Virus record (IMG/VR): IMGVR_UViG_3300033072_001087
Location: 50,816-114,815 of that record
DNA length: 64,000 bases
Strand: one strand, 5' to 3'
From: a virus
Taxonomy: Duplodnaviria > Heunggongvirae > Uroviricota > Caudoviricetes
In this document: positions 36,011 to 62,671 of the stretch, in pieces
Layout of the letters: each line of letters opens with the position of its first letter
Numbering within the stretch: position 1 is the first letter of the stretch
The notes under the pieces: generated by a model
What the model saw: only the letters and a program-made list of their open reading frames with translations
What the model was told of the DNA's origin: nothing
Database searches by the model: none
Translations under genes and position numbers: made by a program

Positions 36011-37078
36011 ATGCCACCAACACGCGAAATCTACAAAGAATATACCCGCTTGCTCGAAGAACTGTCACTCTCGAAAAGGAGCGCGGCGCGCATGATAGCG
36101 GACAAGTACGGACTATCGCTCGATCCAACGCGGCGTCGGCTGCATCAATATGATGTGCGGCTTAAAGACGATCTCAGTAAATGGAAAGACGCGCTTTCAG
36201 ACCTTCGTCGGCAGAACCATTTTGTTGTCGGTCACGCCAGCGATATTCACGCCCCATTTCACGACCAACAAGCCCTCAACCTGTCTTATCAGACCACACA
36301 TCATCTACAACCCAATATCGTTGTCGTCGGCTCTGACTTCGCCGATTTTCCAACGATCAGCGCCTACGCGCCCGACCCGGACTTGGGCAACGAAGATATT
36401 CTCGAAACCATCCAACAGGCTTGGTGGCGGCACATTGACGACATTCGTAAAGCCGCGCCGAACGCGGTACTCGTCTGGATACGCGGGAACCACGAAGAAC
36501 GGCTTTGGCGTTTCATCAATGAAAGCGCACCGCAAATTCGTAATACGACGCGCGACGCCTTTATCAACCTCATCCGCTATCAAGGGAATGTCCTCTATCT
36601 AGGCGACATACCGGAAATCGAGATCGGCCCACTGACGGTGCTGCATGGCGACAACACTTGCATCGGCGACATGGCGGCGCGCAAGCTGCTGACGCATCGC
36701 CGTTTTCAAGGATTCTATATGTTCGGGCATAATCACAAGATTACCGAATACACCACGCAGGGCAATAATCGGTTGTCTGGCGCAGCGGGCGGCGGGCATC
36801 TTGGGCAGCGCATCCCGCATTACCAGCGCAACTCAAAATTCAATCACTGGATTCAAGGCACTTGCTACGGAATCGTAGATTGGAAAGCCGATTACGTGGC
36901 ATTTGAAAATCTCAAGTTTCAAGTGGATAATAAAGGCACGCTGCACACAAGCATCGGCAGCACTCACTTTACGGAGAGGAAATGTACATCTTCGCGCCAA
37001 ACTACCCAATGGCACAACGTTATGCAGAACTCCATCGAATCAAGTCCTTCGTCTACGTCACAGATGAATGCCAAGTAA
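36011..37078 (+). CDS. Metallophosphoesterase (calcineurin-like phosphatase) with N-terminal HTH-like segment.
   Basis: VVGHASDIHAPFHD (DxH), VVVVGSDFADF (GD), WIRGNHEE (GNH[DE]), FMFGHNH. Confidence 0.7.
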   Translation: MPPTREIYKEYTRLLEELSLSKRSAARMIADKYGLSLDPTRRRLHQYDVRLKDDLSKWKDALSDLRRQNHFVVGHASDIHAPFHDQQALNLSYQTTHHLQPNIVVVGSDFADFPTISAYAPDPDLGNEDILETIQQAWWRHIDDIRKAAPNAVLVWIRGNHEERLWRFINESAPQIRNTTRDAFINLIRYQGNVLYLGDIPEIEIGPLTVLHGDNTCIGDMAARKLLTHRRFQGFYMFGHNHKITEYTTQGNNRLSGAAGGGHLGQRIPHYQRNSKFNHWIQGTCYGIVDWKADYVAFENLKFQVDNKGTLHTSIGSTHFTERKCTSSRQTTQWHNVMQNSIESSPSSTSQMNAK

Positions 37079-37265: not shown

Positions 37266-37300
37266 ATTACTGTACATTAGTAAGTCTAATGTACAGTAAT
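37266..37300. promoter_or_regulatory. Perfect inverted repeat with 15-bp arms and a 5-nt spacer (attactgtacattag taagt ctaatgtacagtaat), an operator-like site adjacent to the RBS.
   Basis: Read directly. Ends 5 nt before the aggag RBS of the ORF starting at 37312. Confidence 0.6.
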
Positions 37301-37311
37301 TAGGAGCTGTC

Positions 37312-37815
37312 ATGATTTCAACCAAAGACCTGAACAACTATAATCTAATCGGCGTATTTTCCGTCCGCGATCTGGCGACGATGTTCAATCCGCCAACCGG
37401 CACATATGTATATTTTAAGCGGTCTGATTTGGTTTGCTGTGGATTCGACGCGATCGTTATCGAAAGAGTCCTGCGCGAGAAGATGCACACAAAAGCCGCA
37501 TATGGGCTGGTATTTACCAACGAGGATCGAAAGGATCTACTTCTCGTAGACGGAAACGATATGATTTTCGCTTATGAGCCAAGAATGGCTGTTGAGTCAA
37601 CGAGCGGCTTGACGGAAGACGAACGCGCGGTACTCGACAACCTCGTCGCGGCTTGGGACGCGCACGCAAAACTGCCGGTGCAGCACCCGACGCACATGAA
37701 TGAATTTATGCAAGCCATTCACGCCGCACAACGGATTGTCATGTCGCGTCCAGTGGCACGCGCCGAAGGCTGGATAAAAGAAACCGCAAATACTCGTATC
37801 AATCTACCGGAGTAA
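37312..37815 (+). CDS. Hypothetical protein.
   Basis: 167-aa ORF with a good RBS (taggag). Confidence 0.4.
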   Translation: MISTKDLNNYNLIGVFSVRDLATMFNPPTGTYVYFKRSDLVCCGFDAIVIERVLREKMHTKAAYGLVFTNEDRKDLLLVDGNDMIFAYEPRMAVESTSGLTEDERAVLDNLVAAWDAHAKLPVQHPTHMNEFMQAIHAAQRIVMSRPVARAEGWIKETANTRINLPE

Positions 37816-42483: not shown

Positions 42484-43257
42484 TCAAGCAAAGTTATCTG
42501 CGAACATTGGCAGCGTGTAGGCAACGGATAGCCGCTTACGTGCTGTTACCGAGTGAACTGGCGAATTATCCCCAAGAATGTACCGTCGTCCCGTGTTCCG
42601 CGCAGCGACGCCGGTAGTGCCGCTGCCGCACGTTGGGTCTAAGACGACATCGCCAGATAGCGTATAGGTTCGTATAAGATACTCGATCAAGCTAACAGGC
42701 TTTTGCGTCGGATGCAGCCCGGTTTCGTTCGCAAATTGATGAACGGTCTTCGGGTATCTCCACCCCTCGTTGACTGTACCGAGCAAATCGAACTTGCCGT
42801 AGTTGGTCGTCTTGCCTTTCGTCTTTGCCTTGTACGGCGTTCCAGCTTCCATTTGCGGGAAATATACCGGTTCTTTCCGAGAGAAAATCAGAATGTTCTC
42901 GTGTGAGCGAAGCGGACGGCGGTTCGCATCCAAGAAGCCGCTTCCGCGCGGCTTCTCCCAAATCATCTCGTAGCGAAATAAGTCGAGTGCGCTCATAACC
43001 AACATACTCGTGAATGGTTGAGATCCGGTGAGCGCAATTACGCCGTCCGACTTGATGATGCGGCGGAAACGCCGCCACATCGGTTCAAGCGGAATCAGCG
43101 TATCCCAACTGTTTTGCGTTACCGCGTAGGGTAAATCTGCGAAGATGAAATCGACAACGACTCCCGCCTCGTAAATCCAGTCGCACAGCGAGAACAGGTC
43201 CAGAAAATGAACCGCGTTGAATAGATCTGAGGCCGTCCGCGCTGGCAGCAGGTTCAC
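42484..43257 (-). CDS. DNA methyltransferase (N4/N6 class).
   Basis: FADLPY-type motif IV and VLDPTCGSGTTGVAA motif I. Confidence 0.7.
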   Translation of the reverse strand: MNLLPARTASDLFNAVHFLDLFSLCDWIYEAGVVVDFIFADLPYAVTQNSWDTLIPLEPMWRRFRRIIKSDGVIALTGSQPFTSMLVMSALDLFRYEMIWEKPRGSGFLDANRRPLRSHENILIFSRKEPVYFPQMEAGTPYKAKTKGKTTNYGKFDLLGTVNEGWRYPKTVHQFANETGLHPTQKPVSLIEYLIRTYTLSGDVVLDPTCGSGTTGVAARNTGRRYILGDNSPVHSVTARKRLSVAYTLPMFADNFA

Positions 43258-44397: not shown

Positions 44398-45242
44398 TAC
44401 GTTGACTCCTCATTGATTGTTAGGTTCGCGAACATCGGTAGTGTTCGGATTGGATCGTAATTCATCCACAGCGATTCCATCTTCTGCTTTGGCGTCCCTG
44501 TGCCGCTAACTGTATTTACGGCAAAGTCCCTGCGCGTATACCCGTTTAAAGCGGAATACAACGCATTATCGTAGCCGCTCAAAATGACATATGCCTTCTT
44601 GATCGCGTTTAAAGCGGCGACCAACCGTTCGTGATGCGCATCATCAACATCATTTTCATACCGCGCTTCGGTCCGCGTCGATAAAACATATGGCGGATCA
44701 AGATAAATCAACGTCCGTTCGCGGTCAAATTCGCCGATCAGTTCCAGTGCGTCGCGGTTGGTCACAATGACCGTCGATAGCCGCGCGTGTAATTCCGGCA
44801 TTTCATCGACCGATGACAGGAAATCGCTGACCGACTTGCTCGTATTACGGCGAACGGTTGTGTTGATTGAGAACCCCCCAATGCCATTATGCCGTGTCCG
44901 ATTGACGTACCAGAAACGGAATGCGCGCTCAACATCATCCAATTCGCCGCGCAGCGATACGCGGTACTCGTTCGATGTGCTTTCGTCATAGAGCGCTAAC
45001 TGACACAGGCGATAAAATTCCGCGAACAACGCCTCATCGCGCAGCACTTTGAATAAGGCGTAGACATTCCGATTCACGTCGTTGTAGAGTTCAATCGGAA
45101 CGCGCGGCTTGTTGAGCAGAACAACGCCGCTTCCGCCATACGCATCCACGAACGTGTCGTATAAGGACTCGTCAGGGAAATAAGACAACAATTGCGCGAT
45201 CATGCCGCCTTTTCCGCCAAAATACTTGACCGGTGCGTTCAT
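44397..45242 (-). CDS. dam: DNA adenine methyltransferase (Dam-like).
   Basis: KYFGGKGGM (motif I region), DAYGGSG, YLDPPYVLSTR (DPPY). Start placed at MNAPVKYFGGKG. Confidence 0.75.
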   Translation of the reverse strand: MNAPVKYFGGKGGMIAQLLSYFPDESLYDTFVDAYGGSGVVLLNKPRVPIELYNDVNRNVYALFKVLRDEALFAEFYRLCQLALYDESTSNEYRVSLRGELDDVERAFRFWYVNRTRHNGIGGFSINTTVRRNTSKSVSDFLSSVDEMPELHARLSTVIVTNRDALELIGEFDRERTLIYLDPPYVLSTRTEARYENDVDDAHHERLVAALNAIKKAYVILSGYDNALYSALNGYTRRDFAVNTVSGTGTPKQKMESLWMNYDPIRTLPMFANLTINEEST

Positions 45243-45562
45243 TTTGTATCTAGTAATTTTGGCATGTACAGCGCGTGTTTGCCCATCACCCATCCATCCG
45301 GCATCGCGAAGATTTTTATCTTAATCGCCCAATCCGCAAACGCTTTTGCCTCAAGCAGCATCTTGATCTTGCCATCATCAAGGTTGGTTGCAGTTTGTGC
45401 TGCAAACAAGAGAAGCAAGCAGTACGATGCGCGCCAATAGACCATTTCGCGCCACGCTTTAAACCAGCGGTAAAGCAAGTACAATGGCACAAGAAATATC
45501 GCGAAGAACCACCCAACATCCGCGTTCATGAAGGCTGTCCAATCGATAATGCTGGCGTTCAC
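45239..45562 (-). CDS. Small membrane protein.
   Basis: Hydrophobic segment DVGWFFAIFLVPLYLLY. Confidence 0.3.
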   Translation of the reverse strand: MNASIIDWTAFMNADVGWFFAIFLVPLYLLYRWFKAWREMVYWRASYCLLLLFAAQTATNLDDGKIKMLLEAKAFADWAIKIKIFAMPDGWVMGKHALYMPKLLDTK

Positions 45563-45960
45563 TCGATCGATTCCTTTGCGTAATAGCGTGCGATCATCGC
45601 GTCCGTCTTACCAGTCTCATCGATGATACCGGCGCGTTTGCCGTATATCATGTGATATGGCTTACGCGTACTCAAATCAAGATAGACCGGTGTATTCCGC
45701 GCGCCGAAATAGTCGCCGTAGCCGATAATCGGACCTTGCTCATGTTTCTTGAATCGCTTCGCCGCTGGCTGCGTCGATGCTTCAATGGCCACCTGCTTGA
45801 CCGCCTCGATAAAATCGGGGTGTCGTAATGTGCGATAGACCGACTCGATGACGTTTTCCCAGACAATCGGGATTTGTTCGCCCCGCTCATCGTATGCCGC
45901 ACCGACAATACCCAATCCGATCGCCAATTTCATTGTGTTTACAGCGTCATGATGCTTCAT
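45559..45960 (-). CDS. Hypothetical protein. Start moved to MKHHD to avoid overlap with the ligase.
   Basis: ORF. A possible H..HD..D HD-like motif, but too weak to call. Confidence 0.25.
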   Translation of the reverse strand: MKHHDAVNTMKLAIGLGIVGAAYDERGEQIPIVWENVIESVYRTLRHPDFIEAVKQVAIEASTQPAAKRFKKHEQGPIIGYGDYFGARNTPVYLDLSTRKPYHMIYGKRAGIIDETGKTDAMIARYYAKESIE

Positions 45961-47029
45961 CGTTACCCTCTGTGCGTTCCTTGAAAGCATTGCGGTAGAT
46001 AATAGGTTCAATCGACTTTCCCGACTTAAGCGCAAACAAATACCCATGTACATCTTTCGGGTAATTTGCTTGTACCCACAGCGCGAAGTCCCGTTGAGTT
46101 CCGCTCGGCGCAATTGATATTGCGTCCACGCACTCGTTTGTGATGCGTGTTACTGTTTCATCTATCTCTCTTTTCCAAGCACGAATTTGATCAAGGAACT
46201 CGTCTGGTACGCCATCAATTAGCTGCTCGTATTTGTCTTGCGCAACCGCATCAAGGATTCGGTTAAAGCTGCATCCCGTCAAAATGCGATGAGCCATTAC
46301 ATACGCATCCCCCTTGACTTTAAGACGCATATTGTCCGAATAGCGCAGCACCCAGCCCTCCTCATTCGCACTTAAAGATTGCGCCGCATTCAAAATGTCA
46401 TCTATACTATCGAAGGTGTAGGTTCGCGGACGCATAAACCCATACGCATTTGCTATAACATCTAATTCAGCCGCATAAAGCTCGTGACCTAATTGAATAT
46501 TGCGCCCGCCAAGCAGCACAACACCCTCGTAATCGCCGTAATTTACGACGATGCGGTTTTCTGGATAGATGATTTCAAATAACAGCGTAACCCTGCTGTC
46601 AAATGCGAAATTGGGATGATGTTGTTGAAACCATGCGCTCGCCCATTGTGCTTGAGCGCCGGTGAACGATCCGCGCGTTGCCATTTTCCATTGATCGTTG
46701 TGGAAATACAAAATACCAAGCGAACCATCCATCTTTTCCGTTATCTCGATCAAACGAGCGCCCGGCATAGGAAAGATTTGTCCGTAATTCCAGAACTTTG
46801 AGAACGGACGGGCTATGCACTCGCCGTTCTGAGTGTTAAAAATCAGCCCTCGTGAATTCGCTTCGAACCAGTTCCATCCTGACGGCGGCTTAAATTGTGC
46901 TGCTTGGGTGTAGTTGAATAACACTAACCCGTCGTGGTATGTAGCTGATACCTCTCCATACTGGCTCCAATCTTGTTCGCCGCGCTGGATTAACGACTGT
47001 ATATCGCCCAAGGACCGGATACTATTCAT
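45947..47029 (-). CDS. ATP-dependent RNA/DNA ligase-family nucleotidyltransferase.
   Basis: ITEKMDGSLG is the KxDG lysine-adenylylation motif I. 360 aa. Confidence 0.5.
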   Translation of the reverse strand: MNSIRSLGDIQSLIQRGEQDWSQYGEVSATYHDGLVLFNYTQAAQFKPPSGWNWFEANSRGLIFNTQNGECIARPFSKFWNYGQIFPMPGARLIEITEKMDGSLGILYFHNDQWKMATRGSFTGAQAQWASAWFQQHHPNFAFDSRVTLLFEIIYPENRIVVNYGDYEGVVLLGGRNIQLGHELYAAELDVIANAYGFMRPRTYTFDSIDDILNAAQSLSANEEGWVLRYSDNMRLKVKGDAYVMAHRILTGCSFNRILDAVAQDKYEQLIDGVPDEFLDQIRAWKREIDETVTRITNECVDAISIAPSGTQRDFALWVQANYPKDVHGYLFALKSGKSIEPIIYRNAFKERTEGNDEAS

Positions 47030-47820
47030 GATGCTCCCCCAAATAAGCTCAATTGCACAACGCCGTCTTTAAGCGGCTTATCCGTAGGAAATTCGGCGAT
47101 GCGCCGGTTTGCCATTTCGACATATTTTCCAGAACGATCGCAGCCTAAGAAACAACGCTTGTGTTTAAGCGCGGCTTCAGCAACCGTTCCGGATCCCATA
47201 TACGGATCAAGGATAACTTGCGCATTCGTCGTGCGAATGCAGCGGCTTGCCAATTCCAGCGGAAATGGCGCGGGATGTTCGGTACCAGAGGCTTGTGGAA
47301 TATCCCACACATCCGTCAACCCGGACGATCCTTCGACAAACGTAAAATCAGCCATCGCGATGATGTAAATGACCTCATAGCTAGGCAAGAAATAACCACG
47401 ATTGTGATTGACTCCACCAGATCGCCGCCAAATAATAATCTGACGCAGCGGCGCATCACCGATGATCTTTTCAGCGTGACGTTGGTATAACCCATTCTGC
47501 ACGCGCCACTTGTGGTTGTAGAATATGACCCCTGTTTTCGGGTTAATCACACGCAGCAGTTCGCGCATCACCTGCCGCTGCCAGTCAATGTACTCATCTT
47601 CCGGCAAATCGTCTGCGTAGCCGTCGTAGCCATTTGTGACTAATTCGCCATGCCATCCCGAAAGCGGCGGATGCTTGAATGAATTGCCGCTGCTGTTGCG
47701 GATATTGTATGGCGGCGAAGTCACGACCGAGTCAACAAAACCATCGGGAATTCGCTTAAGGTAATCTAAATCTTTCTCAACAGAAATTGTATTAAGTTGC
47801 GGTGGGAGTACCATCAGCAT
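47026..47820 (-). CDS. DNA methyltransferase (N4/N6 class, ParB-less).
   Basis: VVTSPPYNIRN motif IV and DPYMGSGTVAEAA motif I. Confidence 0.8.
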   Translation of the reverse strand: MLMVLPPQLNTISVEKDLDYLKRIPDGFVDSVVTSPPYNIRNSSGNSFKHPPLSGWHGELVTNGYDGYADDLPEDEYIDWQRQVMRELLRVINPKTGVIFYNHKWRVQNGLYQRHAEKIIGDAPLRQIIIWRRSGGVNHNRGYFLPSYEVIYIIAMADFTFVEGSSGLTDVWDIPQASGTEHPAPFPLELASRCIRTTNAQVILDPYMGSGTVAEAALKHKRCFLGCDRSGKYVEMANRRIAEFPTDKPLKDGVVQLSLFGGAS

Positions 47821-52487: not shown

Positions 52488-53536
52488 TGCCACCACTTCC
52501 AATCGACGCGCGTGATGTTCAGCGGCACAAATTCGCGCTGCCAACCGAGTTCGTCGTACATCACGCGGTCAAAAAGCGCGAACAATTGTTCAGGCTTGTA
52601 CAGCCGCGCGTGCTTGTCCGCCAACGTACATGCCCTGAAGTATTTGACCATCGGTTCGGGCATATCCTGACACGCCCAAAGCATACACTTCGCCGCCATG
52701 TAAATATCGCTGGCAGGTACGGTATCGGTACTCCCAAGCAGCGTTTCGGTCGGATAAAAGTTCTCCCACCGGTCGATCATGTACGAGAACTTCGCGCCCG
52801 CCTCGACCGCGCATGTCCAGTCGATCAGGTAGCCGCGATGCTGTCCGCCGCCACCGATGCCACCGGGTTTGAGCAGGATGTTATCCGGCACTACCGCCCC
52901 GTGCAAGTAGCCAAAGGCGTGCGGGATGGTCAGCGCAGCCAGAACCCGCCGCCAGATCCACGAAATCGCTTTCACAGGAACATGACGATCATAGATGTCA
53001 GCAAGCGTTGTCAGCGAAATCAGTTCATCGCCCTTCACATCATCGCTGTAGGCGAGAATGTGATAGTAGCCGTCGTCGTCCATGTCGCTTTCGACGAGGC
53101 GCGGAATGTACTTGAACGCTTCGCCTTCGTACAACGGCAGCGCGTTGATCCGGTTTAGGATGGCTTCTTCGCGGTCGAACAAGTCTTTGTCGCCGGTGAG
53201 AAGCCGTTTTGTGACCGTCCCATCCGCATTCAACGTGACGGACGCGATTTCGCCGACGCCGAGCATGTGTGAATCATCTTCGACCCACAGCTCATATTTC
53301 GCGTTCAAGTCGGCGATGAAGTCCTCCGCCAGCCCGTACACTTCCTTGTCGCCCATGTGTGCATCGGGGTGATAGGACTTCACAAGCCGCCGCCGAACGT
53401 CGTCAATTTGCGCTTCGACGTTCCCAAAAACCATCGCCGGTGTCGATTGGCGCATCTGTGCGTGCAGTGAACGCAGTTGATCGCGTACGGGCAATTGCTG
53501 AAAAGTTTGCAGGTTCATGTGCGACTCCATTCGCAT
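52484..53536 (-). CDS. J-domain (DnaJ-like) fused to a protein-kinase-like fold.
   Basis: RRRLVKSYHPDAHMGD carries the HPD tripeptide of J-domains. YLHGAVVPDNILL resembles the kinase catalytic loop (HRDLKPENILL, with the Asp replaced), and YLIDWT is DFG-like. Confidence 0.4.
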   Translation of the reverse strand: MRMESHMNLQTFQQLPVRDQLRSLHAQMRQSTPAMVFGNVEAQIDDVRRRLVKSYHPDAHMGDKEVYGLAEDFIADLNAKYELWVEDDSHMLGVGEIASVTLNADGTVTKRLLTGDKDLFDREEAILNRINALPLYEGEAFKYIPRLVESDMDDDGYYHILAYSDDVKGDELISLTTLADIYDRHVPVKAISWIWRRVLAALTIPHAFGYLHGAVVPDNILLKPGGIGGGGQHRGYLIDWTCAVEAGAKFSYMIDRWENFYPTETLLGSTDTVPASDIYMAAKCMLWACQDMPEPMVKYFRACTLADKHARLYKPEQLFALFDRVMYDELGWQREFVPLNITRVDWKWWQ

Positions 53537-54663
53537 ACGCGCCGTCCATGCCCCATGATTTTCACGGGAGCGAATGCGGCGACTTCGATTAGCTCAACCA
53601 ATGACTTCAGCGAGTGTACTTCGATGTAGTCTTTCATTCCGATTCGATCTGTTCCGCGCAAATCGATAACATTCCATAGCTGTTCTGGATTGAATCGATC
53701 AACATGCGACAATGCGATTTCGTGAATGCCGCCCAGAATGTTGTCTGCGGCGTAACGCAGCAGCTTGCGGTCAAGCCAGCCAACGCGCCATGCTCCTTGT
53801 AGTTCCGGTAGTCCGTCGTGATTGTGTCGCTCGACTATTGCCTTACGATCGAGCATATGACTCTCTGACGGGAACGGTCCAACGCCATGCCGCGTGGCAT
53901 AGATGCGGGTTACGCCAACCCGCTTGACCTGTGTGCCGGACGGAATCATCTCCAGAGCGCCTGAAAATGTCGTATCGCTCGACGTGACATATGGGCGATA
54001 GCCGCGATCGCAATCCAACAGCGCTCCTTGTGCGCCTTCAAAGATAACGTGATCAAAGCCGCCGAGTACACTTTCGTCCGAAACGGCGGTCACGACGTTA
54101 TTCAATGCGTCGATCAAATCATCGCCGATTTCCCGATAGAAACTCTCCACCGGACAAATGCGCGCTTCAAGGTACTGCAGCTTCTCATAGACTCTTTGCG
54201 GATCGTTGATCAGATCGCATACGCGCAGCGCCATATCGGGATGGGTTTCTGCCCAGCGCTTCGTGGTGCCTACCCCATTCGCCGTCGTACCGCGCTTGTG
54301 TATGCTGGCGTTGATCAGCGACGTGTACTTGTGATACTCTGTCACGACCAACGCTTGCGGATGAACGATCAGCGCCGGATTTTCACCTAATAGGCGCAGC
54401 CGTTTGTATTCTGCCCACGCCTCGATCGGATCGAAACACACATGCCGACCAAGATACGTGGAAGCGCCCTCAAACGTGCCGCTTCCGAATTGACGGAAGG
54501 TGTGATGGCGAAAATCGTCCGATGTGACGTTGTGCGCAGCGTTCGCGCCACCGTTGTACCGCGCTACCATCTTAGCAGCGTGCTGGCGCGTCAAAAACGC
54601 GGTCGTCATGCCTTTACCTTCGTCGCCGAACCCAAGTCCGGCGACTACCGTTGCGCTTTTCAT
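53515..54663 (-). CDS. Adenylosuccinate synthetase homolog (PurA-like / possibly PurZ-like).
   Basis: GFGDEGKGMTTAFL (GDEGKGK P-loop), YNGGANAAHN (GGxNAGH), IFEGAQGALLDCDRGYRPYVTSSDTT (very close to PurA [25 protein letters not shown]), ATRHGVGPFPSE. At 382 aa it is shorter than bacterial PurA. Confidence 0.75.
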   Translation of the reverse strand: MKSATVVAGLGFGDEGKGMTTAFLTRQHAAKMVARYNGGANAAHNVTSDDFRHHTFRQFGSGTFEGASTYLGRHVCFDPIEAWAEYKRLRLLGENPALIVHPQALVVTEYHKYTSLINASIHKRGTTANGVGTTKRWAETHPDMALRVCDLINDPQRVYEKLQYLEARICPVESFYREIGDDLIDALNNVVTAVSDESVLGGFDHVIFEGAQGALLDCDRGYRPYVTSSDTTFSGALEMIPSGTQVKRVGVTRIYATRHGVGPFPSESHMLDRKAIVERHNHDGLPELQGAWRVGWLDRKLLRYAADNILGGIHEIALSHVDRFNPEQLWNVIDLRGTDRIGMKDYIEVHSLKSLVELIEVAAFAPVKIMGHGRRVCEWSRT

Positions 54664-55778: not shown

Positions 55779-57404
55779 TCAAGCCCCAAGTGTGCCACTT
55801 AAGAGTTCCAGCACTTGTGCTTTTTCCGCCACCCATTCTAGAATACTCTCTGGTAATTCAGAGAGAATTTCATCGATAGAGCGCAAGCGTAGGTGCGCTG
55901 CCATCAATAATAAATCCTGTGGGGTGATTGTGTCATCCCCTACAAAATCGGGGTAATATTGTGTAACATACTCCAATGGCTCTAGCGCATCCTGATCGAT
56001 CGCCTGTTCAACGACGGAAAAGAGCGTCGGATCATGAAAATCGCCGCGATCAAGCAAGCGTAGGTTGTGACTGCGAAACTCGCGTTTCAAGTACCAGTGA
56101 TGCGTGAGGTATCCATAAGCAACCGACTGCTCCAGCATGTGTGAGTCGGGAACGGGCGCAACAATGGTGACGGGCTGTTTTATGGACGGCGTTTCGCGAA
56201 TAGAATCGATCGGCAATGACAGCGACAGCGCGATCTTCTGCTGTGCGTCGATTCGTTCCAAGTGATTAGAAGAGGAAAGCAGTTCAATCAGCCGCAGCGC
56301 CGCGTTTTTGCGTTCTTGAAACGATTGTGGATTGCCGCGCAGTTCATGGGCGATCATGTAATCCACAACTGGAATCGCCTGCGCGATCGCGCTTGCCCAT
56401 GTCCCCGCCTTCACTAGATCGTCCGGATCCGCGCCCTGCGGAAGTTCTGCTACCCACAAGTCATAAGCTGTCTTCGCCAACTGCGCGATCCCACCGACCG
56501 TCGCGCTCTCCCCCGCCTTGTCACCATCCAGCGCGAGAATGGTTTTGCTCTTGCCGATGAGTTTTGCCTGTGCGTCGGTCAGTTGTGTACCCATCTGCGC
56601 GACGACATCCCGATACCCCGCCAAATGACACTGAATGACATCGAAATAGCCTTCTACCAGCACCATTGAACGTGTTGAGCGAATGACGGATTTGCCCTGC
56701 ACGTAGCCGTACAGGATGGAGCCACGATCAAAGATTTCGGTGCGTGGCGTATTTAAGAATTTCGGCTGCACATCATCGCTCAATGAGCGCCCGGAAAAGC
56801 CGACGATCGCGCCACTTGCATCGAATAACGGAATAATCAACCGTCCGCGAAACAATTCCGTAATTCCGTGTTCGCCTTTATGCAGCAACCCGATTGCCAA
56901 CAATTCGCTTTCCTTGAAGCCCCGCTTTTCGAGTGTTTTTGCGACGCCCCAACGCGGTGAATAGCCCAAGCGAAATTCGCTCATGAGCGCTTCGCCAAGC
57001 CCACGCGCTTCAAGGTGATCGCGCGCTGGATTAGATGTTTCGACAAGCGACTGACTGTACAATTCAGCCGCCGCCGCCAACGCGTCGTAAAGCCGCTGCT
57101 TGTGCCGCGATCCCTGCCGTTGAATTTCGACTCCCGCTTCTTTCGCAAGATTCTCAATCGCGGTTGCCAGATCCCAACCGTGTTTGAGCCGCGCGAAATC
57201 AATGACATCGCCGCCCGTTGCGCACGCCCCAAAACAGCGCCATTTCCCCGTATCCGCGTTGAGAACAAAAGAAGGCGTCGAATCGTCGTGCAGCGGACAG
57301 CGGCATTTGTAGCGATTGGTTCCGGTTTGCTTGACGTCTGGCGCGAACTGCCGTACATACGACAGCAGATCGATTTTGTTCTTAATATCTTCGATTGTGG
57401 ACAA
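55779..57404 (-). CDS. dnaG: DNA primase.
   Basis: Zinc-binding CHC2 region YKCRCPLHDDSTPSF...WRCFGAC, TOPRIM LVEGYFDVI...DGDKAG. Confidence 0.85.
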   Translation of the reverse strand: MSTIEDIKNKIDLLSYVRQFAPDVKQTGTNRYKCRCPLHDDSTPSFVLNADTGKWRCFGACATGGDVIDFARLKHGWDLATAIENLAKEAGVEIQRQGSRHKQRLYDALAAAAELYSQSLVETSNPARDHLEARGLGEALMSEFRLGYSPRWGVAKTLEKRGFKESELLAIGLLHKGEHGITELFRGRLIIPLFDASGAIVGFSGRSLSDDVQPKFLNTPRTEIFDRGSILYGYVQGKSVIRSTRSMVLVEGYFDVIQCHLAGYRDVVAQMGTQLTDAQAKLIGKSKTILALDGDKAGESATVGGIAQLAKTAYDLWVAELPQGADPDDLVKAGTWASAIAQAIPVVDYMIAHELRGNPQSFQERKNAALRLIELLSSSNHLERIDAQQKIALSLSLPIDSIRETPSIKQPVTIVAPVPDSHMLEQSVAYGYLTHHWYLKREFRSHNLRLLDRGDFHDPTLFSVVEQAIDQDALEPLEYVTQYYPDFVGDDTITPQDLLLMAAHLRLRSIDEILSELPESILEWVAEKAQVLELLSGTLGA

Positions 57405-57612
57405 GCCGTATCCCTCGTGTGACGCGCGGCGTATAATGAATACGCCCCTGCTTCGCCAGTTTCAAAACGTGCCAACGCGCCGTACCTACATTCATATCGA
57501 ATTTCTCGGCAATATCGTACAGCGATGGCGAACAATCTTGGTCATAGATGAAATCGCGAATAAAGATCTCCATCTCTTGCCGTAATTGCCGTCCTTCTAA
57601 CCCCTTACGCAT
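57382..57612 (-). CDS. LexA-like winged-helix DNA-binding protein (DBD only, no protease domain).
   Basis: QEMEIFIRDFIYDQDCSPSLYDIAEKFDMNVGTARWHVLKLAKQGRI follows the LexA N-terminal domain pattern. 76 aa. Confidence 0.45.
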   Translation of the reverse strand: MRKGLEGRQLRQEMEIFIRDFIYDQDCSPSLYDIAEKFDMNVGTARWHVLKLAKQGRIHYTPRVTRGIRLVHNRRY

Positions 57613-57624: not shown

Positions 57625-58242
57625 CTACCCTATATCGAACAACTGCATCTGTTTTACCATATCCAACGCCTCTGGAATTGACTCCATTGGCATTTGTTTG
57701 CGTTTGCTAATTTTCGCGAAGGTAAACGGTCGTCCGATTCCCAATCTCCACGTAAACCAGACCGATGCGAATTGACTACTGCTGCCCTCAAAGCCGATGT
57801 TTGGCATTCCGTAGTCGATACGCTTATTCATGAACACGAACTCGAACCCGTAGCGATCAAAGAGCGCCTGCGCCTGCCCGGATCCCAATACATCGAGTGG
57901 CATGATCAGCGCAAATGGCTTATCCAGCAAATAGGCGCGTGTCAGCCATTTATACTTTATGCTGAACGGCGGATTTGTGACCATGACATCGTAGTGATCA
58001 GGAACGCTTTCACTCAGAAAGTAGTTCTGTCCGGTCAAAAGATCGCCGCTAATGACCTTATGTCCGTTTGTCAAGAGCGTCCGTTCAATATAACCACCCC
58101 CTCGCGCTGGTTCCCAAATCACCCACTCCGGCTTCAAGTACGGAAGAATCGGATCGAGCGCGTAATCAGGAGTTTGGCACTGATCGCGTCGATTTACGGT
58201 CGATCCGTTCGACTGCTTGTCGTTGCGCTTGGGCTTGCTCAT
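57625..58242 (-). CDS. N6-adenine DNA methyltransferase.
   Basis: MVTNPPF (NPPF motif IV) and an upstream EPARGGG motif-I-like region. Confidence 0.7.
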   Translation of the reverse strand: MSKPKRNDKQSNGSTVNRRDQCQTPDYALDPILPYLKPEWVIWEPARGGGYIERTLLTNGHKVISGDLLTGQNYFLSESVPDHYDVMVTNPPFSIKYKWLTRAYLLDKPFALIMPLDVLGSGQAQALFDRYGFEFVFMNKRIDYGMPNIGFEGSSSQFASVWFTWRLGIGRPFTFAKISKRKQMPMESIPEALDMVKQMQLFDIG

Positions 58243-59702
58243 ATCCCGCTACCGGCATACTCATCGGCGTCAAAGATCTTCATGTAAGACGTGTCGATGC
58301 GGAACAAAATATCATCATGCGTATCGACATTGCGCCCTTTGGCGATGATAAGTTCCGCTTCGTGCGGATCGCCATATCCCTTGTTCTTTTGTAGCTTCGA
58401 TGGACGCCACAGAAACAGGACGCCATCGGCATTGTCCTGCGCGGCTGAAGTGCCAAACAGATCATTCATGTTGAATTTGTCGTCTTCGCTGCGCCCTTCG
58501 TAATTTCGGTTCATTTGCGTGGCGCAGATCAACGGCGCGTGTGCAAAATCTTTCTTTGACCACTTGTCGATTCGCGTGAACATCGCCGCCATTTCCGATG
58601 GCGTATCCGTTCCGCCAGCAAACTTGGTCGTCTTCGCGTAGTCAAGGAATAGAATGTCAAAGCCCGGATTATAGAATGCGCTGTAAATCTCGCTCTCCAA
58701 TTCATCCAGCGTCGGGCTTACCTTGCGTAGAATCGTGAATTGTCCGCTGCCGACCAGCGTTGCGACGCGCTGCTGCGCTTCCGCCAGCCGCTCCAGTTCG
58801 TCTCCCTGAAAATCGCGTTTTTGATAGTGCGTGTAATCTATGCGTCCAAGATTGCAAATCAGGCGATCGATAAACTCGTTGGGGTCCATTTCCAGTGTCA
58901 CGTACAGAACGCGATACCCCGCCATCGCGGCGTTGAGCGCCCAATTCATCATGACTACCGTCTTCCCCCAGCCTTGCGGCGCAGAGAAGATATAGAGTCG
59001 CCCGCGCTGCCAGCCCAACAACGCCTCATCCATCGCTTTGAGTCCGGTTGTGATGCCCGGCTTAAACGACGGATCGGCGATCTCGGCTTTGACCTGTTCG
59101 ATACGCTTTTGTACTGTATCCACAGCGTCATACAACGATTGCCCGCTCATGCTGTCAAGCCGCATTTGCAGTTGACGTTCGGCGGAGCGAATTTCTGCCA
59201 GCGCGGATGGCAAATCGCGCTGCGAATCGTCAAGAATACTAAGCGCATGTTGGCTCAAATACATAAACCCACGACGGACGGATAAACGCATCAAAGCGTC
59301 CGCGTAGGATTGCACAGAAAGCCCCTTTACAGACGCGATCAGCGTGTTTAGGTAGCTATCCCCCCCAACGTAATCCAGAACCGATCTAGCCCCATTTTTG
59401 ACCGATTCCAAGCGTGTTCTGAGAGTTGTTAGATCGACGTGCTGCCCATCGCGTGCGATTGCTTGCATCGCCTTGTAAATCGTGCCGTTTTGCACGAAAT
59501 AGAAATCTCTGTAATCGAGTCCGCCGATGCTTTTCATCAGCGCCGATGTATCAGCGCTTGGCGACTGCCCCTTGAGCAGAATCGCGCCTAACAGCGATTG
59601 TTCAAGTGTGCGATCGGACGGATAATCAGGATCCTTTTTGTTGCCGACAACGACTTTCGTTGGCGTCGAAATCTGGTTGTTGACCCAAATATCGATGGTC
59701 AT
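58239..59702 (-). CDS. dnaB: Replicative DNA helicase (DnaB family).
   Basis: N-terminal EQSLLGAILLKG, Walker A IFSAPQGWGKT, RecA-like core. Confidence 0.85.
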   Translation of the reverse strand: MTIDIWVNNQISTPTKVVVGNKKDPDYPSDRTLEQSLLGAILLKGQSPSADTSALMKSIGGLDYRDFYFVQNGTIYKAMQAIARDGQHVDLTTLRTRLESVKNGARSVLDYVGGDSYLNTLIASVKGLSVQSYADALMRLSVRRGFMYLSQHALSILDDSQRDLPSALAEIRSAERQLQMRLDSMSGQSLYDAVDTVQKRIEQVKAEIADPSFKPGITTGLKAMDEALLGWQRGRLYIFSAPQGWGKTVVMMNWALNAAMAGYRVLYVTLEMDPNEFIDRLICNLGRIDYTHYQKRDFQGDELERLAEAQQRVATLVGSGQFTILRKVSPTLDELESEIYSAFYNPGFDILFLDYAKTTKFAGGTDTPSEMAAMFTRIDKWSKKDFAHAPLICATQMNRNYEGRSEDDKFNMNDLFGTSAAQDNADGVLFLWRPSKLQKNKGYGDPHEAELIIAKGRNVDTHDDILFRIDTSYMKIFDADEYAGSGI

Positions 59703-59704: not shown

Positions 59705-60703
59705 TCAGCCTCGCGGGGTTGATGCAAGACGCGCGATCTCGTCACGCTTCCTGAAAAACTCGGCGATTTTCTCTGGATCGGCTGGTGCCATTTTCGTCTC
59801 CTGTGCTGGTTTGATGCGCTTGAGCAGTCGTTCGCGCGCAACCCGGACCGCCGTGTCGCTGCGTTCGTGCGCCAAAAACGCCTCAAAGTGATGTTGGATG
59901 GTTTCGGGCTTGGTCGGAATCGGTGTATCACCGTACATCATGCGCCAATATGCGCCGAATGCCTCGACGTGTGGTGCTGTTACTTCGCCGTCGATCTTAA
60001 AATCACCCCATTTTCCCGTACCCCGCCCTTGAAAATAAGCGATCAACTTGCCCGGAAACGGCCCGGCCTTGAGCCGGTAAGCAACGCAAACCGCATCCAT
60101 CCACGCACGATGACTCGCGAGTATTTCGTCGTCGCTTTGCGACGACAGATCTTTTAAATCTTTTTTCTTTTCTTTGTCTTTATCTTTGTCTTTAGGTCCT
60201 ATAGGCCCCGGGACTTTAGCCTTAAGAGACAAGAGAAGAGAGTCTAGGATCCGCGCGCGCGCGTCCGAAGGCAGCACCGCTAAATCTGGCTGTGCTTCAA
60301 GGTTTTCCCTCAACTGTTCAGCAAGCACCGCTAAATCTGGCTGTGCTTCTTCGACGGTTTCGGGCAGCACCGCTAAATCTGACGATGCTTTCGCTGCGAC
60401 ATATTCAAGGTTATCGACGTGACGATCTTGCAGTTCGATGCGGGTTGAAATGCCCCGCGCGGCTTCTGATTTGGTGGGTGTTGTGCATTTAAGATAGCCA
60501 AGCCGTTCAAGCGACTCGCGTGCTTCGCGTGTTTTGCTGACACTCATCTTACAGGCTGCGGCGGTTGTCTCAAGGGACTCGTCGCTGTTTGCGCCGAGCG
60601 ATAGATAATGACCGAGAAGCCGATGCTCGTATGGGTCAAGCTCTTCCGCCAGCATCGGCATGGTGTAGTCGTAGCGGGGAGCGGTTGAAATAATGGTTTG
60701 CAT
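59705..60703 (-). CDS. Replication initiation protein (HTH N-terminus) containing internal repeats.
   Basis: Position upstream of dnaB. wHTH-like N-terminus. Repeated peptide (Q)PDLAVL(AEQ) three times. Confidence 0.45.
   Translation of the reverse strand: MQTIISTAPRYDYTMPMLAEELDPYEHRLLGHYLSLGANSDESLETTAAACKMSVSKTREARESLERLGYLKCTTPTKSEAARGISTRIELQDRHVDNLEYVAAKASSDLAVLPETVEEAQPDLAVLAEQLRENLEAQPDLAVLPSDARARILDSLLLSLKAKVPGPIGPKDKDKDKEKKKDLKDLSSQSDDEILASHRAWMDAVCVAYRLKAGPFPGKLIAYFQGRGTGKWGDFKIDGEVTAPHVEAFGAYWRMMYGDTPIPTKPETIQHHFEAFLAHERSDTAVRVARERLLKRIKPAQETKMAPADPEKIAEFFRKRDEIARLASTPRG
60273..60391. repeat. Three direct repeats of about 26 bp (agcaccgctaaatctggctgtgcttc), a candidate origin with iterons inside the initiator gene.
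   Basis: Copies at 60273-60298 and 60324-60349 are identical. The third, at 60366-60391, has a few mismatches. Confidence 0.5.
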
Positions 60704-60762
60704 GAGTTGTTCTCAATAGACCATAGAGGGACACAGAGTCCCTCTATGGCGCTTGCTTTTGG

Positions 60763-62163
60763 TTAGAACGGGATGTCTGCCATCGAGAGGCTGACGCCGA
60801 CAACTTCCATGTAGGCGCGATCCGCTTCGCCGCGCTTTTCCCATGTCAGCAGTACCAGCTTGTCGAGTGACAGCTTGCTTTTCAGACCTTCGTCCTGTAG
60901 GTTTTGCAGTCCGGTCTCGTCGATTTCGGCAAAGATTTCACGCAGCTTTGTGCGTCCGGCGTGATAGCTCAGATCGCCGATAACCGTGTGGAACACGATC
61001 GGTTTGCCCTTGCCTGCATAACTGACATCACGCGCTGTCACCGGGAGAAGGCGCTTGACAACTTCGGCGATAATCCCTGCCCGCGCCGCTTCTTCCGATG
61101 CAAAGCCTCTTACGTCGGATACCGGAGCGCTGATGAGGATGAGTTCGGCGGGAGTTTCAAAGTTTGCCTGACACCACGCGTCAAGATGCGCGATGGACTG
61201 TTCGTCCCATGTGAATTTCGGCTTTGGCTTGTTGTTTGCCGCAAGCGATTGCAGGTGCGCATCCATCGCCGCCAAGAACGAATCGACGGTTGGATAAGTC
61301 TTGAGATCAAGTTCGCTAAAGCCCTTGATCGGATGTCCAAGCATTTCGCCCGTTTCCTTGAGTGCCGCTTCCCAATCGACGTTCTTCGGCTTGCCCTTTT
61401 CGGTGAACTCGTGTTTGCGCCAGTATGCGGCGAAGGCTTGCTTGGCGGTGTCGTCCGTAATCCAATGCTTGATTTCAGCGGAGCCGCCGTTCCCGCTGGC
61501 TGCGCCCGCTGCCGAGTCTGGCGCGGGTGTTGCTGACTCCCCGTGTTTCGGGAGCGCGCGTAAAGGGGGCGTTGTCGATCTAACCTCCTCAACTTCGCCG
61601 ACTACCGTCATGTTGCCTTCGGCGTCTACATCTACGTCCGCTCCTAATTCATCTGGCGTGTACAAGCCTAAGATGACATCGGGGAACACGACACGGGCGC
61701 AAGCAGCGACCGCGCGCCATTTGAGCATTGTCTTCGGCTGTTTCTTGTAGTTCTCTTTGGCAGCCAGCCCCAATTTCTGAGCATCGTCCATCGAGAAACT
61801 TTCGGTGTGCGCCGCGCGCCCTGAGCGCTTCATGGTGACGATGGCGACCGTATCGCTGCAGTCAAATTCGATGTTTTCCAGAAGCCCGCTAGCGTTGATC
61901 ATCGCCAACATCAACTGCGGCGACGCCGCAGGCTTGCCATTGATGACGTTGATGTTGTTGATGCTCGTCCAGTAGGATAAGCCATATTCAGCGCCCATCA
62001 TGATAATGGCGGCTGCTTGCTGTTCGCTGCGGATGTGGGATGGCATGAACCCGCTCCGCACAAGCACCGACGAGATTTGGATAATGGTGTTGAGGTCATT
62101 CATGTCGCGTGGCACGCCAACAATACCCTTCGGCTGTGTCGTCGTTATTGCCATGTCTACCAT
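60763..62163 (-). CDS. RecT-like single-strand annealing protein with a C-terminal extension.
   Basis: N-terminal 200 aa (SQLLMAMINASGLLENIEFDCSDTVAIVTMKR...YKKQPKTMLKWRAVA) fits the RecT-family pattern. The C-terminal 250 aa are unassigned. Confidence 0.5.
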   Translation of the reverse strand: MVDMAITTTQPKGIVGVPRDMNDLNTIIQISSVLVRSGFMPSHIRSEQQAAAIIMMGAEYGLSYWTSINNINVINGKPAASPQLMLAMINASGLLENIEFDCSDTVAIVTMKRSGRAAHTESFSMDDAQKLGLAAKENYKKQPKTMLKWRAVAACARVVFPDVILGLYTPDELGADVDVDAEGNMTVVGEVEEVRSTTPPLRALPKHGESATPAPDSAAGAASGNGGSAEIKHWITDDTAKQAFAAYWRKHEFTEKGKPKNVDWEAALKETGEMLGHPIKGFSELDLKTYPTVDSFLAAMDAHLQSLAANNKPKPKFTWDEQSIAHLDAWCQANFETPAELILISAPVSDVRGFASEEAARAGIIAEVVKRLLPVTARDVSYAGKGKPIVFHTVIGDLSYHAGRTKLREIFAEIDETGLQNLQDEGLKSKLSLDKLVLLTWEKRGEADRAYMEVVGVSLSMADIPF

Positions 62164-62354
62164 ACTGCGTCTCCCGCAATAATTAATTTGGCGATTACGA
62201 AAGAATAAGGCGCAATGCTCGTAAGCCGTGCGCCCTTAGTTTTTCTCAATATTGTATCGGGTTTGTTTGCCATTGACCATTGAGACTTGTTTTGCTCTTT
62301 TATCCCTGCTATCATTTATTCTATCACCTTAAATCTCTCAAGGCAAGGGTCAAA

Positions 62355-62594
62355 ATGTCAAGGAAAATAGGATCGGGATTTATAAAAGAAGGCGAAACAG
62401 CAGTGCATGTTCGTCTTAAATCTGACGTTCACGGCGCTGCGGCGTTGTTGATCGAAACCAACACGGCGCATAAGGGCAAGACGGTTGAAATGGTACTGGA
62501 CGAAATGCTGCGCGAAGAATTACGGCTGCATATCGAAGCGTACCAAAAAATAGAAAATGCAAAGCAGAAGGCTTTAGCGCATCTGGTCGAGTAG
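62355..62594 (+). CDS. Small protein (about 80 aa) at the start of a plus-strand unit divergent from recT.
   Basis: ORF following a 190-bp AT-richer intergenic region. Confidence 0.3.
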   Translation: MSRKIGSGFIKEGETAVHVRLKSDVHGAAALLIETNTAHKGKTVEMVLDEMLREELRLHIEAYQKIENAKQKALAHLVE

Positions 62595-62671
62595 GTGGTA
62601 TAATAGACGGCATCAGTGATGTCCGTTTATGTGTGGGAAAATGACCACAACAACCTCTCAAGGATAAGCCA

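What the first reader, a model, noticed from the sequence alone, without database searches (positions are those of the whole stretch)
60273..60391. Iteron-like direct repeats inside the replication initiator gene
Three 26-bp direct repeats spaced 51 and 42 bp apart lie inside the gene upstream of dnaB, reminiscent of lambda ori within O. They are also translated as a repeated PDLAVL(AEQ) peptide. This is a likely replication origin.
Basis: seen in the sequence. Interest (0 to 1): 0.55.

Follow-up and report, generated by a model that had tools for sequence, protein, structure and literature searches.

The report
Lambda-style replication origin inside initiator gene
Three palindromic repeats and an adjacent easily melted A-rich stretch inside a phage's replication-initiator gene look like a classic lambda/P22-type replication origin, so this is a well-supported but ordinary example of a known arrangement in a poorly catalogued metagenomic protein family.

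Summary
Three 26-nt direct repeats lie at 60273, 60324 and 60366, against none expected by chance, and they are unique in the 64-kb window. They sit in a 332-aa gene (59705-60703, minus strand) directly upstream of a DnaB-type helicase gene in a tailed-phage replication module.

Each repeat is a 24-bp imperfect palindrome. The repeats lie just after a predicted winged-helix DNA-binding domain. About 85 nt further on is an A-rich tract, the second least stable stretch of the window, and then a small palindrome. Phage lambda's origin has the same order of parts.

Against its one close relative (56% protein identity, four repeats), synonymous sites are conserved in this central segment: 79% against 42-49% in the flanks (p = 7e-6). 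An exhaustive search found 461 related protein clusters. Of the 151 listed proteins (150 search hits plus close relative P0002), 92 carry peptide repeats, and 88 of 89 N-domain members start them at residues 95-175. Nine related loci have palindromic iterons of at least six different sequences at that spot, often read in different frames. Most are followed by an A-rich tract, and five have a confirmed DnaB helicase gene next door.

Verdict: a lambda/P22-type origin embedded in its initiator gene. It is a new member of a known kind, not tested experimentally. Interest is modest.

The parts
59705..60703 (-). Initiator gene (332 aa) that contains the whole candidate origin
   Evidence: ORF. It has no direct Pfam or PHROG hit. 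461 related cluster representatives were found, and 51 of 60 tested match phrog_270 'replication initiation protein'.
60425..60643 (-). Coding region for the N-terminal winged-helix domain (aa 21-93), the presumed iteron-binding domain
   Evidence: The AlphaFold2 model has pLDDT 66-85 here with H-E-H-H-E-E topology. Foldseek matches are only to MarR-type winged-helix DNA binders. This is the conserved part of the family.
60366..60391 (-). Iteron 1 (aa 105-113, KASSDLAVL), the weaker copy
   Evidence: It has 8 of 12 dyad-symmetric pairs.
60324..60349 (-). Iteron 2 (aa 119-127, EAQPDLAVL); coding-strand sequence GAAGCACAGCCAGATTTAGCGGTGCT
   Evidence: It has 9 of 12 dyad-symmetric pairs.
60273..60298 (-). 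Iteron 3 (aa 136-144, EAQPDLAVL)
   Evidence: It has 9 of 12 dyad-symmetric pairs.
60197..60272 (-). Conserved spacer of about 76 nt (60197-60272) between the last iteron and the A-rich tract; it includes the (CG)6 run at 60252-60263
   Evidence: Synonymous codon identity with L001 is 13/15 for aa 147-165. GACGCGCGCGCGCGG is identical in L001, and the similar CGCGCGTGCGCGCGG sits at the same place in L013 although the peptide differs. This is the only (CG)6 run in the window. Its role is unknown.
60146..60196 (-). A-rich, purine-skewed tract (coding strand AAAGACAAAGATAAAGACAAAGAAAAGAAAAAAGATTTAAAAGA; encodes KDKDKDKEKKKDLKD), the candidate DNA-unwinding element
   Evidence: GC is 0.20-0.24. 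It is the second least stable 40-60-mer of the 64-kb window (z 3.7-3.9). It is 81% pyrimidine on the + strand. Equivalent tracts follow the iterons in lambda and in 8 relatives.
60128..60146 (.). 8-bp-stem palindrome GTCGTCGC-TTT-GCGACGAC directly after the A-rich tract
   Evidence: L001 has GTCGTC-AAAA-GACGAC at the same place. Lambda has a 12-nt-arm palindrome directly after its AT-rich tract (I3 of L003).
59708..60127 (-). Coding region for the C-terminal helical domain (aa 193-332), the presumed helicase-recruiting module
   Evidence: It is shared with L001 and L013/P0003 and with proteins that have other N-termini. It has no Pfam family. The role is inferred from the adjacent DnaB gene.
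58239..59702 (-). DnaB-type replicative helicase gene immediately downstream, probably translationally coupled
   Evidence: Pfam DnaB and DnaB_C, and phrog_19 at E = 4.5e-61. A DnaB-type gene follows the initiator in L007, L010, L012 and L013, and in L011, which is the same phage as the window. The truncated gene after the initiator in L001 is presumed DnaB but was not scanned.

Best explanation
The region from about 60128 to 60391 is most likely a lambda/P22-type origin of replication embedded in the linker-coding part of the phage's own initiator gene. The proposed mechanism is as follows. Dimers of the initiator bind the three 24-bp palindromic iterons through the N-terminal winged-helix domain. 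The iteron spacings of 42 and 51 nt, about 4 and 5 helical turns, put the sites on roughly one face of the DNA, so a wrapped nucleoprotein complex could form. The strain opens the A-rich, purine-skewed tract about 85 nt downstream. The C-terminal domain then brings in the phage's own DnaB-type helicase, encoded by the next gene, followed by the phage DnaG primase. The anatomy, its conservation at the DNA level and its recurrence across the protein family are shown by tool results. Binding, melting and helicase recruitment are inferred by analogy with lambda O/ori-lambda and P22 gene 18/gene 12.
For: (1) The repeats are real, unique and non-random.
(2) Each repeat is an imperfect 24-bp palindrome with 8-10 of 12 symmetric pairs in all 7 copies of the window and L001. 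The chance of 9 or more of 12 in a random 24-mer is 4e-4.
(3) The constraint is at the DNA level. Synonymous codon identity with L001 is 50/63 in aa 104-192 against 62/136 in the flanks, Fisher p = 7e-6. The iterons consistently use rare codons, for example TTA, which is 9.6% of Leu codons.
(4) The order of parts is winged helix, iterons, A-rich least-stable tract, palindrome. Annotated lambda ori has the same order when run through the same tools.
(5) The feature runs through the family. 92 of the 151 listed proteins have peptide repeats against 1 of 151 after shuffling, and 88 of 89 N-domain members start them at aa 95-175.
(6) Nine related loci carry 3-6 palindromic iterons of different sequence at that position. 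In several, spacings of 20-23 nt put the same DNA repeat in two reading frames; in L006 it reads as RSPHEQ and PVHHMN.
(7) In 9 of 10 iteron-bearing loci, counting the window and lambda, the least stable 40-mer of the gene lies -5 to +86 nt after the last iteron and is purine-rich on the coding strand.
(8) Iteron copy number varies between close relatives, 3 against 4, as it does between lambda (4) and Stx phages (6) (PMC7466680).
(9) A DnaB-type helicase gene follows the initiator in the window and in 4 distinct relatives. This is the P22/L gene 18-gene 12 layout (PMC8022706).
(10) Relatives match PHROGs named replication initiation protein and O-like.
Against: There is no experimental evidence of binding or initiation for this phage or for any member of this protein family. 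The window protein itself has no significant Pfam or PHROG hit (best E = 0.034 to phrog_270). Direct similarity of the family to lambda O is marginal: hhalign E = 0.035 with probability 1.5%, and hmmsearch 2.5 bits. In this phage all three repeats are in one reading frame, so selection on the peptide is not excluded by frame alone. The A-rich tract is about 85 nt from the last iteron, whereas it is 10 nt or less in lambda and most relatives. One relative (L004) has no detectable iterons, and one (L012) has iterons but no adjacent A-rich tract. GC skew changes sign near 60-62 kb, but this coincides with the switch in gene orientation and so is uninformative. Only 64 kb of a 114.8-kb contig was visible, so another origin elsewhere cannot be excluded.
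Confidence: 0.77

Rival explanations
1. The repeats are binding sites for the initiator or another phage DNA-binding protein, but they serve regulation, such as autorepression or copy control, rather than marking the site of initiation. The true origin would lie elsewhere in the 114.8-kb genome.
For: Palindromic sites for a winged-helix dimer are also typical operators. Only 64 kb of the contig was examined (one search gives the contig length). A small LexA-like winged-helix protein is encoded nearby at 57382..57612. L012 has iterons without an adjacent A-rich tract.
Against: The least stable, purine-skewed tract sits next to the iterons in 9 of 10 loci, including experimentally defined lambda ori. 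No other iteron-like cluster exists in the window, and the divergent promoter region 62170-62670 has none. The position is inside the gene and not at a promoter.
Confidence: 0.12
2. The repeat is selected at the protein level. EAQPDLAVL would be a repeated short motif or linker unit of the initiator, for example for partner binding, and the DNA repeat would be a by-product.
For: All three copies, and all four in L001, are in the same frame with spacings of 33, 42 and 51 nt. The peptide is conserved between the window and L001. A similar peptide, VPDLAQ, recurs in the distant members P0063 and P0007.
Against: Synonymous sites are conserved and rare codons are kept. The DNA is palindromic, which a peptide motif does not require. 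In relatives the same DNA repeat is read in different frames and gives unrelated peptides. The segment is modelled as low-confidence linker. The recurrence of PDLA in L012 is explained by a shared DNA core, CCAGATTTAGC.
Confidence: 0.07
3. The repeats are a recent, neutral in-frame duplication in a tolerant linker and have no function.
For: Two copies are 100% identical. Copy number differs between the window and L001.
Against: The repeats are retained with almost the same sequence in a relative at 56% protein identity, while synonymous sites elsewhere in the gene have diverged. Analogous repeats occur at the same place across a family of hundreds of clusters.
Confidence: 0.03

Closest known systems
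Phage lambda ori-lambda inside gene O, and the Stx-phage variants
   Same: Iterons with internal dyad symmetry lie in the middle of the initiator gene, directly after the DNA-binding domain: aa 117-145 of 299 in lambda and aa 105-144 of 332 here. They are followed in the coding direction by an A-rich, purine-skewed, least-stable tract that encodes a Lys-rich linker (lambda TKEKRKDYSSE; here KEKKKDLKDLSSQSDDE), and then by a palindrome. Iteron number varies among relatives (PMC7466680).
   Different: The iterons here are 24-26 bp at 42-51 nt spacing, against about 19 bp at 20-24 nt in lambda. There are three copies instead of four. An 85-nt conserved spacer with a (CG)6 run separates the iterons from the A-rich tract. 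The next gene is a DnaB-type helicase, not a P-type loader for the host helicase. Sequence similarity to lambda O is only marginal.
Salmonella phages P22 and L: gene 18 (initiator with internal repeats) followed by gene 12 (DnaB-type helicase)
   Same: The initiator gene carries its own distinct iterons and is followed directly by a phage-encoded DnaB-type helicase gene (PMC8022706).
   Different: No detectable sequence match to any isolated phage genome by blastn or tblastn. The iteron sequence is different. The C-terminal domain has no Pfam family. I did not compare directly with P22 gp18.
PHROG families phrog_270 (replication initiation protein) and phrog_678/345/391 (replication initiation O-like)
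   Same: Relatives of the window protein match these families: 51, 20, 7 and 6 of 60 tested. Lambda O matches phrog_678, phrog_345 and phrog_391.
   Different: The window protein and its close relative P0002 fall below threshold, with best E = 0.034. They belong to a divergent branch known only from metagenomes.
Iteron-type plasmid origins (Rep initiators with winged-helix domains, such as RK2 TrfA)
   Same: Direct repeats bound by a winged-helix initiator lie next to an AT-rich unwinding element (review PMC4980987, seen in the list; otherwise my own knowledge).
   Different: Plasmid iterons normally lie outside the rep gene and are usually non-palindromic sites bound by monomers. Here they are palindromic and lie inside the coding sequence.

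Membership tests
Lambda/P22-type origin embedded in the initiator gene (architectural class) | Three or more direct repeats (iterons), each with internal dyad symmetry | tested here: met
   There are 3 copies. The motif is unique in the window (3 hits against 0.04 expected). Each has 8-9 of 12 symmetric pairs, and the chance of 9 or more in a random 24-mer is 4e-4.
Lambda/P22-type origin embedded in the initiator gene (architectural class) | Iterons located inside the initiator gene, between the N-terminal DNA-binding domain and the C-terminal domain | tested here: met
   The iterons are at aa 105-144, the winged helix at aa 21-93, and the low-confidence linker at aa 94-199. Lambda's iterons are at aa 117-145 of O.
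Lambda/P22-type origin embedded in the initiator gene (architectural class) | AT-rich, strand-asymmetric unwinding tract flanking the iterons on the downstream side | tested here: met
   The tract at 60146-60196 has GC 0.20-0.24, is about 81% purine on the coding strand, and is the second least stable stretch of 64 kb. It starts about 85 nt from the last iteron, against 4 nt in lambda.
Lambda/P22-type origin embedded in the initiator gene (architectural class) | Constraint at the DNA level overlaid on the coding sequence | tested here: met
   Synonymous codon identity is 0.79 in the central segment against 0.42-0.49 in the flanks, p = 7e-6. Relatives read the same repeat in different frames.
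Lambda/P22-type origin embedded in the initiator gene (architectural class) | Helicase or helicase-loader gene directly downstream of the initiator | tested here: met
   The DnaB-type helicase gene starts 2 nt after the initiator stop. The same layout occurs in L007, L010, L012 and L013.
Lambda/P22-type origin embedded in the initiator gene (architectural class) | The initiator binds the iterons, and replication starts there | not testable with these tools
   This needs gel-shift or footprint assays, marker-frequency mapping, or an ori-plasmid assay.
Lambda O protein sequence family (Pfam Phage_rep_O; PHROG 'replication initiation O-like') | Significant sequence match of the protein to the family model | tested here: not met
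   There is no Pfam hit at E <= 0.01 and no PHROG hit at E <= 0.01. At a relaxed threshold the best matches are phrog_270 at E = 0.034 and phrog_391 at E = 0.11.
Lambda O protein sequence family (Pfam Phage_rep_O; PHROG 'replication initiation O-like') | Remote homology of the N-terminal domain shown through profiles or intermediate sequences | tested here: inconclusive
   20 of 60 relatives hit phrog_678, which lambda O hits at 1.7e-35. Direct profile tests against lambda O are marginal (hhalign E = 0.035, probability 1.5%; hmmsearch 2.5 bits, E = 0.006 at Z = 1), although both align the helix-turn-helix region.
DnaD-like replisome organisers (phrog_186; Pfam DnaB_2) | C-terminal DnaD/DnaB_2 domain | tested here: not met
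   33 of 60 relatives hit phrog_186 and 2 hit Pfam DnaB_2. The window protein does not, and neither its C-terminal domain nor its C-terminal-only relatives have any Pfam family.

The most novel reading that the evidence does not exclude
In this clade (window, L001, L013) the origin may be more than a lambda copy. A conserved alternating-CG element sits in an approximately 75-85-nt spacer between widely spaced 18-24-bp palindromic iterons and the A-rich tract. It might act as a supercoil-sensitive (B-Z) switch or as a clamp that sets where melting starts. Separately, the strictly in-frame repeats may also be used at the protein level (EAQPDLAVL as a partner-binding motif), which would make the segment truly dual-coding.
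Probability: 0.1. Interest if true: 0.5.

Novelty: new member of a known kind. Interest (0 to 1): 0.3.

Why it matters
The finding gives a concrete, testable origin (60128-60391) and a cognate initiator for an uncultured phage lineage with no relatives among isolated phages. It also shows that a large initiator family carries its iterons inside the gene, as lambda O and P22 gp18 do. That family has 461 cluster representatives, has no curated Pfam model (7 of 60 members weakly match the generic HTH_36 domain), and is known mostly from metagenomes. The practical value is for annotation, for predicting origins in metagenomic phage genomes, and for building ori-plasmids. It does not change how phage replication is understood.

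Tried and rejected
- The nucleotide search of the module against 50,697 phage records found nothing. tblastn with the window protein and with the L006 protein also found nothing.
- The PDB sequence search with the two-sequence profile gave 0 hits. The AlphaFold2 model was poor overall (pLDDT 52), so only the winged-helix domain was usable, and Foldseek gave only generic MarR-type matches.
- The IMG/VR scan with the two-sequence alignment found nothing, and the GTDB genome scan found nothing. IMG/VR scans with P0003, P0063 and P0007 also found nothing.
- GC skew cannot locate the origin, because it follows gene orientation.
- I considered the divergent, low-GC intergenic region 62170-62670 as an alternative origin. 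It has no iteron-like repeats, only weak promoter-like matches.
- I considered a Z-genome (2-aminoadenine) twist, because phrog_1211 labels gene 53515..54663 as PurZ-like. I rejected it. The protein keeps the catalytic Asp (GFGDEGKG), whereas that residue is Ser in 100% of phage PurZ sequences according to PMC12884076.
- A promoter-like match inside the gene (60573..60546, minus strand) is at chance frequency and was not used.
- The (CG)6 run is not statistically unusual on its own, since shuffles give about 3 near-matches. Only its conservation in relatives is notable.

Full report
**1. The observation**

The window holds three copies of a 26-nt unit at 60273-60298, 60324-60349 and 60366-60391 (100%, 100% and 85% identity; spacing 51 and 42 nt). 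Shuffled sequence gives no such matches. A degenerate palindromic version of the motif occurs three times, all here, against 0.04 expected. No other local repeat family with three or more copies exists in the 64 kb. An independent assembly from another sequencing run (L011) is 100% identical over 11.4 kb including this region.

The repeats lie in a 332-aa ORF on the minus strand (59705..60703). On the coding strand they translate as KASSDLAVL, EAQPDLAVL and EAQPDLAVL.

**2. Context**

The window is a tailed phage. It encodes a large terminase, a portal and a major head protein. The minus-strand replication module runs in this order:
- RecT-like annealing protein, 60763..62163
- the 332-aa ORF
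- DnaB-type helicase, 58239..59702, starting 2 nt after the ORF's stop
- a DNA methyltransferase
- a small LexA-like winged-helix protein
- DnaG primase, 55779..57404

The 332-aa protein itself has no Pfam or PHROG hit. It has no PDB sequence relative and no match in 50,697 isolated phage genomes.

**3. Anatomy of the candidate origin**

On the coding strand the repeat is GA-AGCACAGCCAGATTTAGCGGTGCT. The 24-bp core is an imperfect palindrome. It has 8-10 of 12 symmetric pairs in all seven copies of the window and its close relative, and the chance of 9 or more in a random 24-mer is 4e-4.

An AlphaFold2 model, poor overall, gives a winged helix at aa 21-93, a low-confidence linker at aa 94-199 and a helical C-terminal domain. 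Fold matches are only to MarR-type winged-helix DNA binders. The iterons (aa 105-144) therefore begin just after the DNA-binding domain.

Downstream in the coding direction come three further elements:
- A conserved spacer containing (CG)6 at 60252-60263.
- An A-rich tract at 60146-60196. Its GC is 0.20-0.24 and it is about 81% purine on the coding strand. It is the second least stable 40-60-mer of the whole window, beaten only by an intergenic stretch at 37.2 kb.
- An 8-bp-stem palindrome at 60128-60146.

Annotated lambda ori, run through the same tools, shows the same order: four palindromic iterons at aa 117-145 of O, then the least stable purine-rich tract, then a palindrome. This matches the description of lambdoid origins in PMC7466680.

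**4. DNA-level or protein-level constraint**

The word-based search of 5.8 billion proteins found only one relative, P0002 at 56% identity on locus L001, which has the same RecT-initiator synteny. L001 has four copies of the repeat at spacings of 33, 42 and 51 nt, and the repeat DNA is almost invariant between the two phages.

At residues that are identical between the two proteins, the same codon is used in 50 of 63 cases in aa 104-192. The figure is 62 of 136 in the two flanking domains (Fisher p = 7e-6). The iterons keep rare codons, for example TTA, which is 9.6% of Leu codons. This points to selection on the nucleotide sequence.

**5. The wider family**

An exhaustive HMMER search found 461 cluster representatives, mostly sharing the N-terminal domain. 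Of 60 tested, 51 match phrog_270 'replication initiation protein' and 33 match a DnaD-like loader PHROG. Twenty, 7 and 6 match 'replication initiation O-like' PHROGs that lambda O itself hits.

Of the 151 listed proteins (150 search hits plus P0002), 92 carry short peptide repeats, against 1 of 151 after shuffling. Among the 89 repeat-bearing proteins that share the N-terminal domain, 88 start their repeats at aa 95-175.

I could read DNA for ten related loci; L008 and L009 encode the same protein. Nine carry palindromic iterons at this position:

| Locus | Iteron | Copies | Spacing (nt) |
|---|---|---|---|
| L001 | same type as the window | 4 | 33, 42, 51 |
| L002 | GTCCACCACATGGAC | 3 | 20, 22 |
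| L005 | TGTTCATGGAGTGAA | 3 | 20, 21 |
| L006 | GTTCACCAGATGAAC | 5 | 36, 21, 20, 21 |
| L007 | GTTCACCACACGAAC | 3, plus 1 inverted | 20, 20 |
| L008/L009 | CGCGTCTGTGGTGAACACC | 5-6 | 21 |
| L010 | TGTACCCAATCAGGTACA | 4 | 21, 34, 23 |
| L012 | TGTGCCAGATTTAGCACA (shares the core CCAGATTTAGC with the window) | 3 | 33, 24 |
| L013 | TGTACGAAATNTCGTACA | 4 | 33, 30, 42 |

L004 has no detectable iterons.

Where spacings are not multiples of three, one DNA repeat is read in two frames; in L006 it gives RSPHEQ and PVHHMN. That can only reflect selection on the DNA.

In 9 of the 10 iteron-bearing loci analysed, counting the window and lambda, the least stable 40-mer of the gene lies -5 to +86 nt after the last iteron and is purine-rich on the coding strand. 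L012 is the exception.

A DnaB-type helicase gene follows the initiator in the window, L007, L010, L012 and L013. The truncated next gene in L001 is presumed DnaB but was not scanned. L002 instead has a DnaC-like loader about 1 kb downstream.

**6. Most likely mechanism**

The arrangement is that of lambda O/ori-lambda and, more closely, of P22/L gene 18 followed by the DnaB-type helicase gene 12. In those phages each initiator binds its own iterons inside its coding region (PMC8022706).

I infer the following, without having shown it. Initiator dimers bind the three palindromes through the winged helix. The spacings of 42 and 51 nt, about 4 and 5 helical turns, allow a wrapped complex. The A-rich tract melts. 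The C-terminal domain, which has no Pfam family and is shared with initiators that have other N-termini, then recruits the phage helicase.

**7. Rivals**

- A regulatory role for the sites, with the origin elsewhere, is not excluded. Only 64 of 114.8 kb were visible.
- A protein-level repeat motif is disfavoured by the synonymous conservation, the palindromy and the frame-shifted relatives.
- A neutral duplication is disfavoured by conservation across relatives.
- GC skew is uninformative, because it follows gene orientation.

**8. Membership and novelty**

As an architecture, every computable defining feature of a lambda/P22-type embedded origin is met.

As a sequence-family member of lambda O, the protein fails direct tests. 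The link is only transitive or marginal.

Three things differ from the textbook cases:
- The iterons are longer and more widely spaced.
- An approximately 85-nt conserved spacer with an alternating-CG run is also present in L001 and, in similar form, in L013.
- The C-terminal domain is uncharacterised.

This is a new member of a known kind. Interest is modest, and function remains untested.

Noticed in passing
window 60721-60749 (between the RecT-like gene and the initiator gene); L001 3185-3217: A perfect 12-bp-stem hairpin lies just upstream of the initiator start codon (RNA fold -27 kcal/mol, z = -5.7). L001 has a 14-bp-stem hairpin of unrelated sequence at the same place (z = -5.9), so the structure is conserved but the sequence is not. 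It could be an attenuator or terminator, an RNA stability element, or a protein-binding palindrome.
   Followed up: partly
window 60252-60263; L001 about 3705-3722; L013 about 3030-3045: An alternating-CG run (GACGCGCGCGCGCGG) lies between the iterons and the A-rich tract. It is identical in L001, and a similar run (CGCGCGTGCGCGCGG) is present in L013 although the encoded peptide differs there. It is the only (CG)6 in the window. Its role is unknown.
   Followed up: partly
window 53515-54663 (-): An adenylosuccinate-synthetase homologue matches phrog_1211, a PurZ-type label, at E = 1e-60. However, it keeps the catalytic Asp (GFGDEGKG), which is Ser in all phage PurZ sequences according to PMC12884076. 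It is therefore probably a PurA-type auxiliary gene and not evidence for a 2-aminoadenine genome.
   Followed up: partly
window 59834-59923 (aa 261-290 of the initiator): A second island of high synonymous-codon identity with L001 (9 of 10 codons) lies in the C-terminal domain (PIPTKPETIQHHFEAFLAHERSD). It could be chance or another embedded DNA or RNA element.
   Followed up: no
window 57625-58242, 47026-47820, 44397-45293, 42484-43257 (all -): Four separate DNA methyltransferase genes lie in the early and replication region, an unusually heavy set that suggests anti-restriction self-methylation.
   Followed up: no
window 43267-44397 (-) and 45947-47029 (-): The phage encodes a beta-clamp-like processivity factor (phrog_947, E = 2e-63) and an RNA-ligase-like protein (phrog_562). 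No DNA polymerase gene was identified among the window ORFs I scanned.
   Followed up: no
window 60763-62163 (-): The RecT-like protein is 466 aa, but the RecT-like match covers only about aa 20-260. The C-terminal 200 aa or so have no match. The same long form is present in L001 and L013.
   Followed up: no
window 37241-37303: The least stable 40-60-bp stretch of the whole window (GC 0.24, z about 4) lies in the gap between ORFs 36011..37078 and 37312..37815. I did not examine it for repeats or promoters.
   Followed up: no
L006 2116-2922: In the relative L006 the gene after the iteron-bearing initiator is a ParA/MinD-type ATPase and not a helicase. This hints that the element may be a plasmid-like prophage (phage-plasmid).
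   Followed up: no
L004 2977-3801: This relative has the most similar N-terminal domain outside the window/L001 pair (48% identity) but no detectable iterons in its gene. It is followed by a 671-aa protein with no Pfam match.
   Followed up: partly
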